A stretch of DNA of 64,000 bases from NCBI RefSeq assembly GCF_000027125.1, contig NC_017626.1. One strand, given 5' to 3'. A model generated the notes under the pieces. The model was not told the origin of the DNA and made no database searches. It saw only the letters and a program-made list of their open reading frames with translations. This stretch comes from Escherichia coli 042 (GTDB taxonomy: Bacteria; Pseudomonadota; Gammaproteobacteria; Enterobacterales; Enterobacteriaceae). Positions 10,924 through 34,770 of this stretch are shown one piece after another. A program made the translations under genes and the position numbers. Within the stretch, counting starts at the first letter, position 1, and every line of letters starts with the position of its first letter.

Positions 10924-16987
<6,064 letters not shown>

Positions 16988-28738: not shown

Positions 28739-30682
28739 TTAAATCCTTAGCAGACGTTTGCAATTTGCAGCCGTTTGTTCTGCATCCTGGATATCCTGTT
28801 CCGACATTAAGCATCGCAACGCATCTTTTTCAATCCAGGGGTTGTTATTTCCGGCAATTGTTAGCCACATCCATGCTTGTTTATTATCAATTTTAGTGCC
28901 TGTCCCCTGAGCATACATTGCCGCAGTCTGGTGCTGCGCCTCGGTCGACCCTAAACGCGCCGCTTTTTCGTACCAGTGCAGCGCATGATTTTCATCTTTT
29001 ATGGTATCTTTTGTACCGTACAGATACATTTCGGCTAACAAAAATATCGCCTCTATTTGCCCACGCTGCGCTGCACCAGTAATCCATTGAATAGCCTCTG
29101 CGTTATTTTCAGGATCATCATTGTTGGTTAAATAATATTTCCCCAATTCATACATGGCCTCCCCTGCCCCATCTGTCCCATTTTTTGCTACTTTGGTAAA
29201 CCAGTACAGCGCTTTTTCCTGGTCCTGTAGAATACTCTCACTTTCGCTATACAACCTGGCAGTATGATATTGCGCATATAAATATCCCTGTTCTGCTGAT
29301 TGCAAAAGCCAACGATGGGCCTGTACCTTATCACGTGCCACACCAATCCCGTGTATATACATTTGTCCCAAATCATACTGGGCACGCTCATGTCCTTGTG
29401 TGGCGGCAGATAAATACCACCGTAATGCTTCTTCATAATTTCGTAATGGCTCAACAGCGAAGCGTGAGATACGGGCAATCTCATATTGCGCAGATGCGTT
29501 GCCATTTTTGGCAGCAAGTAAAAACCATTTTCGTGCCTCACTAATATTCTTATCCGTGCCCCTTCCATCGCGATACATGATGCCCAGCGCATACTGAGCA
29601 TCGATAACATTATGCTGCGCGGCGCGGGTAAACCAGTTAAAGGCTAATTTTAGATCCTGTGAAACCTCATCACCTTCATAATACATTTTGCCAAGAGAAT
29701 ACCAGGCAAGTGAATAGCCTTGCTCTGCAGCATGTAAGCAGGACTGGAATACAGAAGATGGATAATAAAAAAGACCTTTTAATTTTATGGCATTTAGCAA
29801 CTTTTTATATCCACTATGATGTTGCATTGCTAAATTATTGAAGCGTTCTGTTAATTTCCACTTGCGAATCATTTTTTCTTTTCGCCAGGAATATGATAAA
29901 CGCTCTATTAACAATGCCATATAGTTGTCTGATAGTTCAAATCCAGCGACTTTATTTAATACTGCGATATCAAACCATTTCAGGCTCTCTTCATTATCCT
30001 TTAATGATTGATAAATCGTAGCCATTTCCTTCCCGTTTTCCATTTCTTCCAGTGGAGACGAGTTACTGCCAAAGAAAGGGGTAATTTGTTTTTCGATTCG
30101 TGAATAAAGAAGACAACTTTCGTTAATTTCTGTCTGGATAGCTGGTTGACGGCTGCCTGCAACTAAATGCCATCTGAACGTTTGTGCAGCAGCGAGAGTT
30201 AATAATGGCCGGAATACCCGATGAAGATGCAGTAATAACGCTTCTTCAAAGCTCATTCGTGAGCTGAGATCTTTTTTCTCAAGGAAAGATAACGCCTTAG
30301 CAAGTTGCATGGGGGCGTGTTCGGGGGTTGCTTCATTCTCCTCACAGAGCATATCCAGCACGGCTTGCCAGGTGAATTCCTCCTCTGATTTAATAGTGAC
30401 ATCAGGAAGTGGATGACCAGAAAAGGTGTTGAGTGCGCGAAATGTCATCACAGGACGAGGATGAACAATACCCCTGGATATATTGATCGGTTGCTCTTCT
30501 TCCTCTTCTTGCCACTGATCTTCGTCGTCATAACGTAAAGCCTGTTCATAAGCATCGTGCAATTGTTGCCAGGCTTCGGGAGAATCTTCCGGGCGGCAAT
30601 TTTTTACCAGTTGCGCATAACGACGCTTAATATCTCGTTCTTCCGCGCCAGGTTGTAAACCTAATATTTCCCAGCAGTTCAT
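28739..30682 (-). CDS. J-like domain / Sel1-repeat protein, putative co-chaperone of the adjacent Hsp70
   Basis: ORF track 28739..30697 trimmed to ATG at 30682, which overlaps the upstream Hsp70 stop as ATGA. N-terminus CWEILGLQPGAEERDIKRRYAQLVKNCRPEDSPEAWQQLHDAYEQAL resembles a J domain but has RPE where HPD is expected; acidic linker; C-terminal half contains multiple Sel1-like repeats (AQYALGIMYRDGRGTDKNISEARKWFLLAAKNG, AQYDLGQMYIHGIGVARDKVQAHRWLLQSAEQG). Not a K-12 gene I recognise at this locus. Confidence 0.7.
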   Translation of the reverse strand: MNCWEILGLQPGAEERDIKRRYAQLVKNCRPEDSPEAWQQLHDAYEQALRYDDEDQWQEEEEEQPINISRGIVHPRPVMTFRALNTFSGHPLPDVTIKSEEEFTWQAVLDMLCEENEATPEHAPMQLAKALSFLEKKDLSSRMSFEEALLLHLHRVFRPLLTLAAAQTFRWHLVAGSRQPAIQTEINESCLLYSRIEKQITPFFGSNSSPLEEMENGKEMATIYQSLKDNEESLKWFDIAVLNKVAGFELSDNYMALLIERLSYSWRKEKMIRKWKLTERFNNLAMQHHSGYKKLLNAIKLKGLFYYPSSVFQSCLHAAEQGYSLAWYSLGKMYYEGDEVSQDLKLAFNWFTRAAQHNVIDAQYALGIMYRDGRGTDKNISEARKWFLLAAKNGNASAQYEIARISRFAVEPLRNYEEALRWYLSAATQGHERAQYDLGQMYIHGIGVARDKVQAHRWLLQSAEQGYLYAQYHTARLYSESESILQDQEKALYWFTKVAKNGTDGAGEAMYELGKYYLTNNDDPENNAEAIQWITGAAQRGQIEAIFLLAEMYLYGTKDTIKDENHALHWYEKAARLGSTEAQHQTAAMYAQGTGTKIDNKQAWMWLTIAGNNNPWIEKDALRCLMSEQDIQDAEQTAANCKRLLRI

Positions 30683-32379
30683 TGTAGACGCTCCCATTCC
30701 AGAGAGTCTAATGTCGGTTCAACTTTAGCCCGAAAATCAGCTAGTTGATCAGGATCCTGCTTCTCGAGTAGATAACTGAATTGACGAGAGCAATTGCTTA
30801 TCCAGTCTCGTGTTTCCGCCAGGGTGAGTTGATAGAGATTATCAAGACGGGCAATAAAGGCCTGGTTTATCTGTTCATCGCGTGGGTGAATTTTTAACAG
30901 GCTTAATTTGGACAACGACTGCTGTATTTGTTCTGCCGTTAATGCCCCTGGGTTCTGTTCAATAACCAGACTATTTTTAGCCCCTGTCAGTGGCACGCTG
31001 ATATCGACATCAAGAATACCGTTAATGTCGTACGTAAAACGAACATCAATACGCACATTACCGGCCGGTTTTGGCGGAACATTCACTGACAACTCCGCAA
31101 GGAAAATATTATCACCCACCATCCTGCTTTCACCCTGGTAGATTTTAAAATTAACCTCTGTTTGTTGATCATGTGCCGTATAAAAGGCACGAACGCGACT
31201 ACAAGGAATACTTCGGTTACGCTCAATAACGGGTGCAAAATAGCCTGATTCGCGGGTATGCCCCAGCGATTTAGAGGTATCAACGCCAAGTGTATAAGGG
31301 CAAACATCGGTCACTACTACATCTTGTAATTCGCTGTGCCGCGCTTTAAGTGCGGCCTGAATAGCCGCGCCCTGAGCAATGACTTCATCCGGGTTTAAAT
31401 GCATTGCCGGTATACGACCAAAAAGTTGTGTCACAAGTTTGCGAATCAGCGGCATACGTGTAGTGCCACCCACAAGAACAACCTGGTCTAATTGGCTAAT
31501 ATTAATTTTTGCATCGCGAATTGCCCGTTCCAGTGGCATACGGATTCGCTCGAAAAATGCCTGTAATAAAAATTCAAATTTTTCTGTGGTCAGATGCCAG
31601 TAATATCGCCTTCCTTCAATCTCCACACTGAAAGTTGCTTCGTCACGCATACTAAGCACGCGTTTGACACGCTCAGCCTCAATGCGTAAATGGCGTTGGA
31701 GTGTCGGTTCACGCCATTCAATATTTTCAGGAAGATCCATACGTGAGCAATATGCATCGATCAGGATATCGACAATATCTTCACCACCTAAAAAGTTATC
31801 CCCGGCACTGGCTCGTACTTCCATAATATTGTCAAACAACTCCAGTATGGAGATATCAAACGTACCACCACCTAAATCGAATACCAAAAATTGATGTTCA
31901 TCATCTTTATTATGCAAACCATACGCCAGTGCAGCGGCGGTTGGTTCGTTAATTAAACGTTCGACGTTTAAGCCTGCCATTGAAGCTGCCAATTTTGTTG
32001 CTTTGCGTTGCACATCACCAAAATAAGCAGGTACGCTAATTACTGCTTCTGTTATCTCTTCACCTAAATAGCTTTCAGCATCATCTTTTAGCTGACGCAG
32101 TATCAGCGATGAGAGTTCCTCTGCCCGAAATTCACGTCCGCCCAATTTAAACGTCTTTGATGTGCCCATCATGCGTTTAAAATTGGCTGCACAGTTTTGT
32201 GGTTTGATGAGTTGCAGGTCACGAGCTGCCTCCCCTGTCAAAACCATACCATCTTCGTCAACACAAACTACGCTGGGTGTTAAAAACTTGCCTAACGCAT
32301 TGGGGATCAGTTCACTTTGTCCATTTCGCCATACCGCTGCCAGACTGTTAGTCGTCCCGAGGTCAATACCGATAATCAT
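30679..32379 (-). CDS. Hsp70-family ATPase, HscC-like
   Basis: ORF track 30679..32394 (TTG) trimmed to ATG at 32379 with AAGAGGA Shine-Dalgarno. Hsp70 motifs present: IGIDLGTTNS (phosphate 1), FDLGGGTFD (phosphate 2), VLVGGTTRMP (adenosine), beta-sandwich substrate-binding region VTDVCPYTLGVDT; about 566 aa, shorter than DnaK. Confidence 0.75.
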   Translation of the reverse strand: MIIGIDLGTTNSLAAVWRNGQSELIPNALGKFLTPSVVCVDEDGMVLTGEAARDLQLIKPQNCAANFKRMMGTSKTFKLGGREFRAEELSSLILRQLKDDAESYLGEEITEAVISVPAYFGDVQRKATKLAASMAGLNVERLINEPTAAALAYGLHNKDDEHQFLVFDLGGGTFDISILELFDNIMEVRASAGDNFLGGEDIVDILIDAYCSRMDLPENIEWREPTLQRHLRIEAERVKRVLSMRDEATFSVEIEGRRYYWHLTTEKFEFLLQAFFERIRMPLERAIRDAKINISQLDQVVLVGGTTRMPLIRKLVTQLFGRIPAMHLNPDEVIAQGAAIQAALKARHSELQDVVVTDVCPYTLGVDTSKSLGHTRESGYFAPVIERNRSIPCSRVRAFYTAHDQQTEVNFKIYQGESRMVGDNIFLAELSVNVPPKPAGNVRIDVRFTYDINGILDVDISVPLTGAKNSLVIEQNPGALTAEQIQQSLSKLSLLKIHPRDEQINQAFIARLDNLYQLTLAETRDWISNCSRQFSYLLEKQDPDQLADFRAKVEPTLDSLEWERLQ

Positions 32380-32394
32380 AATTATCCTCTTCAA

Positions 32395-32560
32395 ATAAAT
32401 GAACTGATCATTTTATAGAGCAGTTATATATATTCATTTTGTGAATAATGTTCACAATCCCTGCGTTTAAAAATAATTTATAATGATGCAATCCATAACA
32501 TAACTTACGTGAATATAAAGATATTTCGTTTATAATTTTAGCTGTGGGTACTTATATCAT
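32395..32560 (-). promoter_or_regulatory. AT-rich upstream region, presumed promoter of the Hsp70 operon
   Basis: About 165 bp of very AT-rich sequence immediately upstream of the Hsp70 start; typical of promoters of horizontally acquired genes and of H-NS-bound DNA; no specific -35/-10 assigned. Confidence 0.3.
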
Positions 32561-32574
32561 ATACTCTAAATAAT

Positions 32575-32770
32575 TCGATTTGTAGGAAGGCAGCAAGTAA
32601 GTGAATCCCGAGGAGCTTACATAAGTAAGTGACTGGGCTGAACGACAAATCCGCATGGAGCGGATTTGAACGCTGCTTTCAGCGGCCCCGTAAGGGGTGA
32701 GGCCCATGGATGGGCCGAATAACCCGCAGACGCAGCACATGCAACTTGAAGCATGACGAGTATAACCAAT
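32575..32770. other. GC-rich structured non-coding segment (candidate small RNA or gene remnant)
   Basis: No convincing ORF; direct repeat AAGTAAGTGA twice 30 bp apart (32596-32605, 32623-32632); hairpins AATCCGC-ATGGAG-CGGATTT, CCCC-GTAA-GGGG (GNRA-type loop) and GGCCC-ATGGAT-GGGCC; followed by the 32771-32808 terminator hairpin. Confidence 0.25.
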
Positions 32771-32808
32771 AAAGCCAATGGCGGAATATCTACCATTGGC
32801 TTTGTTTT
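32771..32808. terminator. Hairpin terminator between topB and the structured segment
   Basis: AAAGCCAATGG-loop-CCATTGGCTTT followed by GTTTT on the plus strand and preceded by an A-rich run, so it could terminate plus-strand transcripts and, less efficiently, topB. Confidence 0.5.
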
Positions 32809-32823
32809 AGAGTGGAAAACGAA

Positions 32824-34770
32824 TTAATTAGCAGAATCCGTATTATCTTTTTTGGGCTTTGCCGCTTTTTTCACACGATTATTGGGTGCTTTTTTAACAG
32901 CCCCCCCACCTGGTGCCACAATTCCTCTAAACCGTCTGACCGGAGTGCTACGAGCCTGATCAATCAGTTGGTAAAGCGTCCCCACCAACGGCTGCATAAA
33001 GTCCTGATAGCGACACTGCTTTTCGCTGATTTGCGTCAGCACCGATTCCCAGTGCGCGGTCATGTCCGGTCTCGTTGCCATCTCCGGCAGCGAATGGAAT
33101 AACGCTTTTCCAGCGTCGGTGGAGTGGATATAGCGCCCTTTTTTGGTCAGGAAACCACGCTTGAACAACAGTTCAATAATCCCGGCACGTGTTGCTTCTG
33201 TCCCCAGACCATCGGTAGCACGGAGGATCTTTTTCAGATCTTTGTCCTGCACAAAGCGCGCGATCCCGGTCATCGCCGAAAGCAGTGTTGCATCGGTAAA
33301 ATGGCGCGGCGGCTGCGTTTGCCGCTCTACCACTTCACCTTTTTCACACAGCAACTCATCGCCTTTCGCCACCACAGGCAGCGGCGTGCCATCGTTTTCT
33401 TCATCGCGCTCTTTGCTGCCTAACAGCGTGCGCCAGCCTGCTTCGGCAAGAAAACGGGCTTTAGCGACAAATTTACCTTTGGCTATTTCCAGTTCGATAA
33501 CACACTTGCGGAACACCGCATCCGGGCAGAACTGCATCAGGTATTGACGAGCAATCAGGTTATAGACCTTCGATTCGTTCTCCGTCAGGTTGATCGCAGA
33601 ACTCCGTGCGGTCGGGATGATGGCGTGGTGCGCATCGACCTTTTTGTCATCCCAGCAGCGGTTGCGTATATCTGGATCGACCACTGGCTGCGGTAACAAC
33701 CCCGGTGCATGAACGCTGATGGCATTCATCACTGCGTGGCGTCCGGCAAAATGCTCTTCCGGCAGATAGCGACAATCGGAACGCGGATAAGTGATTAGCT
33801 TGTGCGTTTCGTACAACTTCTGGCAGATATCAAGCACGTTCTGCGCACTCAGACCAAAGCGTTTTGCCGCTTCAATCTGCAACGCCGAAAGCGAAAACGG
33901 CAGCGGTGCGGATTCTGATTCCCGTTTATCGTTATAGCTGGTGACTATAGCCGGTTGACCACTAATGCGGTTAACCACATGCTCCGCCAGTGGACGATGT
34001 AACAAGCGCCCTTCTTCATCCTGGTACGGTTCACACGCTTCGCTCGGTTGCCAGATAGCGGTAAACCGCTCATCGGCAGGTGTCACGATATGTGCTTTGA
34101 CTTCAAAGAAGTCTTTCGCCACGAAGTTTTCAATCTCTTCGTCGCGGCGCACTACCAGCCCGAGCACGGGCGTCTGCACGCGTCCCACGGAAAGCACGCC
34201 CTGATAACCCGCATTGCGACCGAGAATGGTGTAAGCGCGGGTCATATTGATTCCGTACAGCCAGTCGGCTCGGGCTCGCGCCAGTGCAGAAACGCACAAC
34301 GGCACAAACTCACTGTTGGAACGAAGACGATCGATCGCCCGCTCAACCGCCTGCGGGTTCAGGTCGTTTATCAAGCAACGCTGCACCTGCTGGCGCTTTT
34401 CCGGTGCCAGTTGCAGATAGTCCAGCACTTCATCCACCAGTAATTGCCCTTCGCGATCCGGGTCACCGGCGTGAACGATTTCGCTGGCTTCATGCAGGAA
34501 GCGTTTGATGACATTAAGTTGTTTAGTCACGGAGGGTCGGGGCTGTAATTGCCACTTTTCCGGGACAATCGGCAAATCCGCAAGATTCCAGCGCGCATAG
34601 CGGCTGTCGTAGGCGTCTGGCTGCGCCTGCTCAAGCAGGTGACCGATACACCAGGTCACTACCTGACCATTACCGCACTCGATAAAGCCATCGCCTTTCC
34701 GGTGCGGTTTGGGCAGGACATCAGCAATGGCGCGCGCCAGACTCGGTTTTTCGGCAATAAACAACCGCAT
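32824..34770 (-). CDS. topB: DNA topoisomerase III
   Basis: ORF track 32824..34827 trimmed to ATG at 34770 ([19 protein letters not shown], Toprim N-terminus), 4 bp after the selD stop; gives 648 aa. Confidence 0.9.

What the first reader, a model, noticed from the sequence alone, without database searches (positions are those of the whole stretch)
30679..30682. ATGA stop/start overlap couples the Hsp70 and J-like/Sel1 genes
The Hsp70 TGA stop (30679-30681) overlaps the ATG start (30680-30682) of the downstream gene. This favours translational coupling and near-stoichiometric production, as expected for two subunits of one machine rather than a chaperone with a catalytic co-chaperone.
Basis: seen in the sequence. 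Interest (0 to 1): 0.4.

Follow-up and report, generated by a model that had tools for sequence, protein, structure and literature searches.

The report
Hsp70 and J-like genes overlap
The four bases ATGA really do join an HscC-type Hsp70 chaperone gene to the gene for its J-like/Sel1-repeat partner in this E. coli island, which makes coupled translation likely, but this junction type is common and does not show that the two proteins form a fixed 1:1 machine.

Summary
Confirmed. On the minus strand the Hsp70 stop (TGA, 30681-30679) overlaps the ATG (30682-30680) of a 647-aa J-like/Sel1 gene. RefSeq annotates the same junction.

The start is secure. All 14 paralogues read begin M-x-C-W. The in-frame ATG five codons upstream (30697) was seen only in the window's allele.

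The ATGA is kept in all 10 Escherichia and Klebsiella loci read, while the J-like protein falls to about 37% identity. First, overlapping J genes have weak Shine-Dalgarno (SD) sites. Later tandem paralogues sit behind 27-70 nt spacers, mostly with strong ones. I found no usable internal promoter and no conserved RNA structure. Termination-reinitiation coupling is therefore likely, but untested.

The 1:1-machine inference is only partly supported:
- 4 of 42 co-directional pairs in this window overlap by 4 nt; the other three are ast enzyme genes.
- Published E. coli data give about 30% complex subunits for such pairs.
- One conserved Hsp70 serves one to three diverging J-like/Sel1 paralogues, which fits exchangeable adaptors.

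In favour of an unusual partnership, the J-like domain carries RPE instead of HPD, as do many relatives (RPD or RPE).

The junction is ordinary; the surrounding system is uncharacterised.

The parts
30679..30682 (-). ATGA junction: Hsp70 stop TGA (30681-30679) overlapping the J-like gene's ATG (30682-30680)
   Evidence: Sequence read directly; the same junction is in RefSeq; conserved in 10 of 10 related loci read
30679..32379 (-). HscC-type Hsp70 gene, 566 aa
   Evidence: Pfam HSP70 E=1e-137. 43% identical to K-12 HscC over the full length. Scores are below the NCBIfam cut-offs for DnaK and HscA. 75-96% identical and always 566 aa in the complete Escherichia and Klebsiella copies read
32385..32389 (-). 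SD (GAGGA) of the Hsp70 gene, 5 nt before ATG 32379
   Evidence: Sequence; SD:anti-SD -5.8 kcal/mol
28739..30682 (-). J-like/Sel1-repeat gene, 647 aa
   Evidence: Pfam Sel1 197 bits in 7 repeats; Pfam DnaJ 25.8 bits, below the 27.8 cut-off. RefSeq calls it a J domain-containing protein
30691..30695 (-). SD-like GGGAG inside the Hsp70 coding region, 8 nt before ATG 30682. Seen only in the window allele, created by AGA to TGG
   Evidence: -7.1 kcal/mol here; -3.3 to -5.8 in the other overlapping first J genes
30695..30697 (-). Extra in-frame ATG (MGAST extension). Not the start and not conserved
30533..30682 (-). J-like domain, residues 1-50 (three helices, no helix IV)
30587..30595 (-). Codons CGC CCG GAA = R30-P31-E32, at the position of the canonical HPD motif
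   Evidence: Sequence. P31 and E32 are invariant and R30 nearly so in 16 homologues. 13 of 14 paralogues read have RPE
30386..30532 (-). Acidic linker, residues 51-99, predicted disordered
   Evidence: pLDDT below 50 for residues 54-99
29753..30385 (-). All-alpha middle domain, residues about 100-310, with no recognisable family
28808..29737 (-). Sel1-repeat array, residues about 316-625 (approximate limits)
   Evidence: Pfam PF08238, 7 repeats; about 35% identical to K-12 YbeQ
30083..30682 (-). Constant 5' 600 nt of the J-like gene, shared at 95-98% identity between tandem paralogues in related Escherichia loci
   Evidence: Sliding identity between J1 and J2 drops from 95-98% to 40-57% after nt 600
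28694..28725 (.). 12-bp perfect hairpin between the convergent ends of gdhA and the J-like gene; likely a shared terminator
   Evidence: Sequence; not scored by the terminator scan
32768..32806 (.). 14-nt inverted repeat just after the topB stop; likely the topB terminator, which would make the Hsp70/J pair its own transcription unit

Best explanation
The ATGA is the true junction of a two-gene operon in a low-GC accessory island of E. coli, lying between topB and gdhA. The operon encodes an HscC-type Hsp70 followed by a soluble J-like/Sel1-repeat protein. Ribosomes finishing the Hsp70 ORF at UGA most likely reinitiate at the overlapping AUG (termination-reinitiation), helped by a modest SD embedded in the last Hsp70 codons. 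The adaptor would then be made only when, and in proportion to, the Hsp70, probably at or below its level. In function the pair most likely works like HscC with DjlB/DjlC. The N-terminal J-like domain docks on its dedicated Hsp70, and the variable helical and Sel1 part selects the client or site. The overlap belongs to a constant module (the Hsp70 3' end plus the conserved first 600 nt of the J-like gene) behind which variable Sel1 cassettes are exchanged, duplicated or deleted. What is shown: the junction, the start codon, its conservation, the domain content, the paralogue architecture and the SD strengths. What is inferred: that translation is actually coupled, the protein ratio, and the adaptor function.
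For: Junction and start. Conservation: ATGA in 10 of 10 loci read, while the J-like protein falls to about 37% identity and the flanking DNA diverges. A GTGA overlap joins the same kind of pair in a Lysobacterales genome, and gaps of +2, +3 and +12 nt occur in three other lineages. SD strengths: overlapping first J genes are weak (-3.3 to -5.8 kcal/mol; -7.1 in the window). Five of six spacer-separated later paralogues are strong (-7.8 to -12.0). Promoters: only 4 promoter-like sites in 4.4 kb against 10.1 expected by chance. The only one near the junction has its -10 box over the ATG itself, so it cannot serve this start. Precedent: 4 of 5 tested E. coli overlapping pairs were coupled, including astDB, whose orthologues lie in this window (PMC6728339). 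Adaptor reading: one conserved 566-aa Hsp70 (75-96% identity) serves one to three J-like/Sel1 paralogues of 644-823 aa (36-94% identity). The paralogues are mosaics of a constant 5' part and a variable 3' part. The window's gene is the orthologue of the second paralogue, yet sits at the ATGA. Family links: J fold and homology to the DjlC J domain; Hsp70 43% identical to HscC; R167 and N170 equivalents present (ERLINEPT, read from the sequence; their role is from PMC8215388).
Against: No expression data of any kind were available, so coupling is inferred. In the window's allele (22 of the 364 E. coli genomes that carry the junction match it at 99% identity or more) the GGGAG SD at -7.1 kcal/mol, with an 8-nt spacer, could support substantial independent initiation. 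I found no conserved RNA structure that would block de novo initiation (alifold -1.66 kcal/mol; single-sequence z = -1.0). One tested E. coli overlapping pair (bioBF) was not coupled. Once an ATGA exists, it is also held in place simply by selection on the stop and the start, so conservation alone does not prove selection for coupling. The RPE motif makes it uncertain whether the J-like domain stimulates the ATPase at all (PMC13254874).
Confidence: 0.6

Rival explanations
1. The overlap enforces near-equimolar synthesis because the Hsp70 and the J-like/Sel1 protein are obligate subunits of one stable machine, not a chaperone with a catalytic co-chaperone.
For: Overlapping or closely spaced pairs are 4.5-fold enriched for heteromeric complex subunits in E. 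coli (30.4% against 6.8%; PMC10666635). The junction is conserved in 10 of 10 loci read. HPD is replaced by RPE, so by the current definition this is a pseudo (type IV) J domain. Pam16, which is of that kind, is a stable structural partner rather than an ATPase stimulator.
Against: About 70% of such pairs are not complex subunits, and the ast genes in this same window are examples. Related loci have two or three paralogues per Hsp70, with only the first overlapping and the others on their own strong SDs, which does not fit a fixed 1:1 design. Reinitiation sets an upper bound on the ratio, not equality. The J-like proteins evolve much faster than the Hsp70.
Confidence: 0.15
2. The overlap is only compaction or history. 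The J-like gene is translated mainly by independent initiation on its own SD, and Hsp70 translation has little effect.
For: The window allele has GGGAG 8 nt upstream (-7.1 kcal/mol), as strong as or stronger than the Hsp70 gene's own SD (-5.8). No conserved occluding RNA structure was found. bioBF is a precedent for an uncoupled overlap. An ATGA, once formed, is frozen by purifying selection on both ORFs.
Against: The other alleles and species read have weak SDs at the overlapping start (-3.3 to -5.8), while the non-overlapping paralogues mostly have strong ones. That pattern suggests the overlap compensates for a weak SD. Four of five tested E. coli pairs were coupled. In those experiments SD motifs usually aided reinitiation rather than replacing it.
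Confidence: 0.2
3. The true start is elsewhere, either the upstream in-frame ATG at 30697 (a 19-nt overlap and an MGAST extension) or a downstream codon, so there is no ATGA coupling.
For: ATG 30697 is the first start codon of the open frame.
Against: That ATG is absent from the other E. coli alleles read and from all other species read. It has no SD (+0.4 kcal/mol). All paralogues read begin M-x-C-W, and J-helix I starts at residue 3, as in DjlB and DjlC. PGAP chose 30682.
Confidence: 0.04
4. A programmed frameshift at the junction makes an Hsp70/J-like fusion protein.
For: None beyond the two frames meeting at the junction.
Against: There is no slippery heptamer (GAG CGU CUA CAA UGA, read). 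No conserved downstream structure was found. The sequence before the stop varies between species.
Confidence: 0.01

Closest known systems
HscC with DjlC/DjlB of E. coli K-12 (with the neighbouring Sel1 proteins YbeQ/YbeT and DUF1266 proteins YbeR/YbeU)
   Same: The Hsp70 is of the HscC type: 43% identical over the full length, and 566 aa, within the 550-580 aa typical of HscC. The J domain is homologous to that of DjlC, with the same start (M-x-x-C-W-x-I-L) and Glu in place of Asp in the motif. Sel1 repeats are part of the system. The djlB and djlC starts also overlap the preceding gene by 4 nt.
   Different: Here the Hsp70 gene lies directly upstream and overlaps the J-like gene; in K-12 hscC is convergent with djlC, and the gene overlapping djlC is ybeU. 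J and Sel1 are fused in one protein. The motif is RPE, not HPE. [quoted passage not shown] The middle domain is unrelated. The locus is an accessory island in about 6.7% of complete E. coli genomes.
ATGA/TGATG overlapping gene pairs coupled by termination-reinitiation (for example astD-astB, hyfH-hyfI, ydbH-ynbE; Huber et al. 2019, 2023)
   Same: Co-directional genes, a 4-nt overlap, and an SD-like motif in the 3' end of the upstream gene.
   Different: Coupling has not been measured for this pair. I found no local occluding RNA structure of the kind Huber et al. proposed for some E. coli pairs.
Type IV (pseudo) J-domain proteins such as Pam16/Tim16
   Different: Pro and an acidic third residue are kept, and only His is changed, to Arg. 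The variant is the majority state of a large subfamily (RPD 68, RPE 22 of the 150 closest cluster representatives) that is often encoded next to a dedicated HscC-type Hsp70. This looks like a co-evolved functional variant rather than a decayed motif; that is inference.
The dnaK-dnaJ and hscB-hscA chaperone operons
   Same: An Hsp70 and its cognate J protein are encoded in one operon.
   Different: From my own knowledge, not checked here: dnaK and dnaJ are separated by a spacer, and DnaJ is made at much lower levels than DnaK. Mayer 2021 gives about 34 uM DnaK and 2.3 uM DnaJ (PMC8215388). Here the genes overlap.

Membership tests
Translationally coupled overlapping gene pair (termination-reinitiation) | Co-directional genes with the stop and start overlapping by 4 nt (or 1 nt) | tested here: met
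   ATGA at 30679-30682, both genes on the minus strand
Translationally coupled overlapping gene pair (termination-reinitiation) | Both genes on one transcript, with no promoter or terminator between them | tested here: inconclusive
   No usable promoter-like and no terminator-like site at the junction in a consensus scan. No transcript data were available
Translationally coupled overlapping gene pair (termination-reinitiation) | Translation of the downstream gene depends on translation of the upstream gene | not testable with these tools
   Needs premature-stop reporter constructs or ribosome profiling
HscC subfamily of Hsp70 | Full-length similarity to HscC, length 550-580 aa, and not a DnaK or HscA equivalog | tested here: met
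   43% identity over 553 aa; 566 aa; NCBIfam DnaK 445 bits against a 648 cut-off and HscA 420 against 708; length criterion from PMC8215388
HscC subfamily of Hsp70 | HscC-specific deletions (GrpE signature, DnaK residues 76-101) and the insertion in SBD-beta loop L1,2 | not tested
   I made no alignment against DnaK
Canonical J-domain protein (Hsp70 ATPase-stimulating co-chaperone) | HPD tripeptide between helices II and III | tested here: not met
   R30-P31-E32. HPE is described as the only replacement that seems to be tolerated (PMC13254874)
Canonical J-domain protein (Hsp70 ATPase-stimulating co-chaperone) | J-domain fold and sequence-family membership | tested here: inconclusive
Canonical J-domain protein (Hsp70 ATPase-stimulating co-chaperone) | Stimulates the ATPase of its partner Hsp70 | not testable with these tools
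   Needs a biochemical assay
Type IV / pseudo J-domain protein | A clearly recognisable J domain with a non-conservative replacement in HPD | tested here: met
   His replaced by Arg; definition from PMC13254874
Sel1-like repeat (SLR) protein | Tandem Sel1 repeats above the Pfam threshold | tested here: met
   PF08238, 197.4 bits against a 30.7 cut-off, 7 repeats
Known or candidate anti-phage defence systems (PADLOC-DB 2.0) | A significant match of either protein to a defence-system model | tested here: not met
   Only marginal partial hits: PDC-M61B E=2e-4 over the actin-like ATPase core, and PtuA E=3e-5 over one repeat

The most novel reading that the evidence does not exclude
The J-like proteins with RP[DE] in place of HPD may be a large, undescribed class of functional partners dedicated to HscC-type Hsp70s. 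In them Arg would take over the His contact to the interdomain linker. That would contradict the view that HPE is the only tolerated HPD variant. In Escherichia and Klebsiella this module would have become a cassette system: one conserved Hsp70 engine, a constant J/linker/half-domain 5' module joined to it by the ATGA, and rapidly diversifying Sel1 target-recognition arrays. Such a pattern is expected for a system under diversifying selection, for example a conflict or surveillance function rather than housekeeping proteostasis.
Probability: 0.25. Interest if true: 0.6.

Novelty: new member of a known kind. Interest (0 to 1): 0.22.

Why it matters
The junction matters little by itself. A 4-nt stop/start overlap is the commonest overlap in bacterial operons, and this one is already annotated in RefSeq. 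Its use is as an anchor. It fixes the start of the J-like gene and shows the two genes are one expression unit. Its conservation marks the Hsp70 and the first J-like gene as a functional pair.

The surrounding system is more interesting. It is a second HscC-type Hsp70 in about 7% of E. coli genomes. Its partner has RPE instead of HPD and varies in copy number and in its Sel1 array. If the RP[DE] domains do stimulate their Hsp70s, the rule that His and Asp of HPD are indispensable would need qualifying for the HscC branch. HscC biology, which is still obscure, would also gain a tractable set of adaptor proteins.

Tried and rejected
- Start at ATG 30697: rejected. It is not conserved and has no SD.
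- Internal promoter: the scan gave fewer sites than chance. The one at 30710-30681 has its -10 box (TACAAT) over the ATG, so it cannot produce an mRNA containing that start.
- RNA structure hiding the SD or start, which would support coupling by unfolding: a small hairpin pairs CUCU with GGGA/AGAG in the Escherichia alleles, but the fold is not better than shuffles (z = -1.0). RNAalifold finds no conserved structure (-1.66 kcal/mol).
- Rfam: nothing above threshold in 28000-33500.
- Defence system: no real PADLOC hit. Literature searches linking Hsp70, Sel1 or DUF1266 to defence found nothing relevant.
- The genome-contig scan with the family alignment returned only 4 loci, and the afdb50 fold library was unavailable.
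- The gene upstream of the Hsp70 gene in E. whittamii and E. fergusonii (a 266-267-aa protein with an N-terminal hydrophobic, signal-like stretch) has no remnant in the window. K. spallanzanii has a different upstream ORF instead, LysR-like by eye and not tested. I therefore did not count this gene as part of the system.
- Frameshift fusion: there is no slippery site.
- The sequence upstream of the Hsp70 gene looked ERIC-like to me from memory. megablast finds it mostly single-copy, in 778 genomes, so I did not verify that label.
Full report
OBSERVATION. Both genes lie on the minus strand. The + strand reads tcat at 30679-30682, which is ATGA on the minus strand. The upstream ORF (ATG 32379, preceded by GAGGA) encodes a 566-aa Hsp70 and ends with TGA at 30681-30679. 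The downstream ORF begins with ATG at 30682-30680 and encodes 647 aa, ending at 28739. The window is E. coli. It is 100% identical over 4.3 kb to strain Ecol_316 and 19 other complete genomes, and RefSeq annotates the same two CDSs with the same 4-nt overlap (Hsp70 family protein WP_000583403.1; J domain-containing protein WP_000995915.1).

WHERE THE SECOND GENE STARTS. The open frame contains an earlier ATG at 30697, giving MGAST-MNCW.... It is not the start, for four reasons.
- It arises from a change seen only in the window's allele, in the third-from-last sense codon region of the Hsp70 gene: AGA to TGG, turning LERERLQ into LEWERLQ. It is absent from the three other E. coli alleles read and from every other species read.
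- It has no SD (+0.4 kcal/mol).
- All 14 J-like paralogues read begin M-[NST]-C-W, as do DjlB and DjlC of K-12.
- In the AlphaFold model, helix I of the J fold starts at residue 3.

HOW UNUSUAL THE JUNCTION IS. As a type it is not unusual. Using the RefSeq annotation of the whole window, 4 of 42 co-directional adjacent pairs overlap by exactly 4 nt and 8 overlap at all. The other three 4-nt overlaps are astC-astA, astA-astD and astD-astB, which encode enzymes of one pathway. In K-12 the DUF1266 genes ybeR and ybeU overlap djlB and djlC by 4 nt as well. Huber et al. (2023) report that 30.4% of E. coli pairs spaced -8 to +10 nt encode subunits of heteromeric complexes, against 6.8% for pairs more than 20 nt apart (PMC10666635). 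That is a real enrichment, but about 70% of such pairs are not complex subunits.

CONSERVATION. I read the junction in ten loci: the window, E. coli M1/5, AF16 and 98193, E. whittamii, E. fergusonii, K. spallanzanii, two K. oxytoca-type loci and one metagenomic contig. All have ATGA, and wherever the Hsp70 gene is complete it encodes 566 aa. Across these loci the Hsp70 stays 75-96% identical while the J-like protein falls to about 37%. The flanking DNA diverges (mean column identity 79% over 140 nt). The last Hsp70 codon changes between CAA, CTA and TTA but always ends in the A of the ATG. More distant HscC-type Hsp70 and J-like pairs have -4 (GTGA, Lysobacterales), +2, +3 (Paenibacillus) and +12 nt; one J-like relative has no adjacent Hsp70. 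Tight linkage is therefore general, and the exact overlap is fixed in the Escherichia/Klebsiella clade. One caution: once an ATGA exists, any change breaks a stop or a start, so conservation alone does not prove selection for coupling.

SIGNALS AROUND THE START.
- SD:anti-SD energies for the overlapping (first) J genes are weak, -3.3 to -5.8 kcal/mol. The window is the exception at -7.1, because the same AGA-to-TGG change creates GGGAG 8 nt before the ATG.
- Later tandem paralogues follow spacers of 27-70 nt. Five of six have strong SDs, -7.8 to -12.0. This contrast is what one expects if the overlap substitutes for a good ribosome-binding site.
- The promoter scan found 4 sites in 4.4 kb against 10.1 expected. 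The one near the junction has its -10 hexamer (TACAAT, 30686-30681) over the ATG itself, so it cannot serve this start.
- No terminator-like site lies at the junction. No conserved RNA structure exists around it (alifold -1.66 kcal/mol), the single-sequence fold has z = -1.0, and there is no Rfam match.
- Hairpins after topB (32768-32806) and between the convergent ends of gdhA and the J-like gene (28694-28725) bracket the pair as its own unit.

WHAT THE GENES ARE.
- The Hsp70 matches Pfam HSP70 at E=1e-137. It scores below the NCBIfam cut-offs for DnaK and HscA. It is 43% identical to K-12 HscC over its full length, and 47-54% identical to Hsp70s of 565-567 aa (plus a 597-aa ORF call in the Lysobacterales locus) that precede J-like genes in other phyla. 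The ATPase motifs (IDLGTTNS, DLGGGTFD) and the R167/N170 equivalents (ERLINEPT) are present in the sequence.
- After it come an acidic disordered linker (residues 54-99), a confident all-alpha domain (100-310) with no recognisable relatives, and seven Sel1 repeats about 35% identical to YbeQ.
- At the HPD position it has R30-P31-E32. P31 and E32 are invariant and R30 nearly so in 16 homologues; the one exception, E. whittamii J2, has HPE.
- Among the 150 closest 50%-identity cluster representatives of the N-terminal region, the motif is RPD in 68, HPE in 31, RPE in 22 and HPD in 1. About 2,010 representatives match at E of 0.001 or better. The J-plus-middle-domain architecture is confined to a handful of clusters.
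- A 2026 review states that HPE (in DjlB/DjlC) seems to be the only tolerated replacement, and it classes non-conservative variants as type IV or pseudo-JDPs (PMC13254874). In DnaJ, His33 hydrogen-bonds to the backbone carbonyl of linker residue L391 and Asp35 contacts R167 (PMC8215388). An Arg could in principle make the first contact and Glu the second; that is my inference.

LOCUS AND HISTORY.
- The pair is a low-GC insert (40-46% against 52-57% in the flanks) between gdhA and topB. K-12 has the DUF1266 gene ynjI in that slot.
- The junction is present in 364 of 5,426 complete E. coli genomes. Only 22 match the window's junction sequence at 99% identity or more. 62 genomes carry an additional first paralogue, J1.
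- Loci read in other Escherichia and Klebsiella have one, two or three J-like/Sel1 genes behind one Hsp70.
- In E. coli AF16 and E. whittamii the two paralogues are 86-98% identical over the first 600 nt and only 38-59% identical afterwards.
- The window's single gene matches the second paralogue throughout (92-100% per 150-nt window) yet sits at the ATGA. J1 was therefore most likely lost by recombination within the shared 5' module. The overlap belongs to a constant unit, behind which variable Sel1 parts are swapped.

MECHANISM AND VERDICT ON THE INTERPRETATION.
- My best reading (confidence about 0.6) is a bicistronic operon in which ribosomes terminating on the Hsp70 UGA reinitiate at the overlapping AUG, helped by a modest SD. 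Adaptor synthesis would then be tied to Hsp70 synthesis. Four of five tested E. coli overlapping pairs behave this way, including astDB (PMC6728339).
- Coupling is inferred, not shown. In this allele the improved SD may allow appreciable independent initiation.
- The further claim of near-stoichiometric output and a two-subunit machine is not carried by the evidence. The base rate is about 30%. Reinitiation gives an upper bound, not equality. The arrangement of one engine with one to three diverging, partly independently translated partners is what one expects of exchangeable targeting adaptors, which is how J proteins normally work.
- The RPE motif keeps a non-catalytic, structural partnership possible (rival, 0.15).

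COMPARISON AND NOVELTY. The system works like HscC with DjlB/DjlC and is clearly related to it: the same Hsp70 branch, a homologous J domain, and Sel1 proteins in the neighbourhood. It differs in gene order, the J-Sel1 fusion, RPE in place of HPE, the apparent lack of a membrane anchor, and being accessory. It fails the HPD criterion of canonical J proteins and meets the definition of a type IV J-like protein. It matches no PADLOC defence model. The finding as given, an ATGA overlap, is an ordinary and already annotated instance of a well-known arrangement, so I score it low (0.22). The context, the RP[DE] J-like class and the constant/variable cassette architecture, is the part worth following up.

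LIMITS. I had no transcript, ribosome or protein data. SD energies come from a simple duplex model on 14 J-gene starts (8 overlapping, 6 spacer-separated). The motif census covers the 150 best representatives only. The literature library is partial; Kluck et al. 2002 and Barriot et al. 2020 could not be read.

Noticed in passing
window 30587-30595 (-); proteins P0121-P0266: The HPD position of the J-like domain reads RPE. Among the 150 closest 50%-identity cluster representatives the motif is RPD in 68, HPE in 31, RPE in 22, HQE in 7, NPE in 5 and HPD in only 1. This points to a large J-like subfamily with Arg in place of the supposedly essential His. I found no paper mentioning an RPD motif in J domains.
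   Followed up: partly
window 30083-30682 (-) against L004 and L009: Tandem J-like/Sel1 paralogues are mosaics. The first 600 nt are 86-98% identical between J1 and J2, and the rest 38-59%. The window's only copy is the orthologue of J2, so J1 was probably deleted by recombination in the shared 5' module.
   Followed up: yes
window 28684-32823; K-12 locus L017 5832-6872: The gdhA-topB slot is variable. K-12 carries ynjI (DUF1266) there, while this strain carries the Hsp70/J-like pair. DUF1266 genes (ybeR, ybeU) also sit immediately upstream of djlB and djlC, overlapping them by 4 nt, in the K-12 hscC region. HscC, J proteins, Sel1 and DUF1266 therefore recur together, unexplained.
   Followed up: partly
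window 30691-30697 (-): A two-base change seen only in the window's allele (AGA to TGG, R562W in the Hsp70 tail) creates both a better SD (GGGAG) for the J-like gene and an extra in-frame ATG. Only 22 of the 364 E. coli genomes that carry the junction match the window's sequence at 99% identity or more.
   Followed up: yes
window 11885-16951 (-): The astCADBE genes form a chain of overlaps: three of 4 nt and one of 8 nt. This is a handy internal control showing that ATGA overlaps also join enzymes that are not subunits of one complex.
   Followed up: yes
window 28600-32800: GC content falls to 40-46% across the two genes, against 52-57% in the flanking core genes. This is consistent with horizontal acquisition. 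Silencing by H-NS is possible but was not tested.
   Followed up: partly
window about 32560-32790: The 444-nt spacer between topB and the Hsp70 gene contains a sequence that resembles the ERIC repeat consensus as I remember it (GTGAATCCC.AGGAGCTTACATAAGTAAGTGAC). megablast finds it mostly single-copy, in 778 genomes, more than carry the island. A 14-nt inverted repeat at 32768-32806 looks like the topB terminator.
   Followed up: partly
L009 458-1261; L010 2434-3234: E. whittamii and E. fergusonii have an extra gene between topB and the Hsp70 gene. It encodes 266-267 aa with an N-terminal hydrophobic, signal-like stretch and no Pfam family. tblastn finds no remnant of it in the window.
   Followed up: partly
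proteins P0003, P0005, P0006: Shorter versions of the J-like/Sel1 protein are on record: 364 aa at 100% identity (a cluster of 29 sequences), 517 aa and 539 aa. The gene may be disrupted in some strains, or the contigs may be incomplete.
   Followed up: no
window 28694-28725: A perfect 12-bp hairpin lies between the convergent stops of gdhA (28683) and the J-like gene (28739). It may act as a terminator for both, although the consensus terminator scan did not list it.
   Followed up: no
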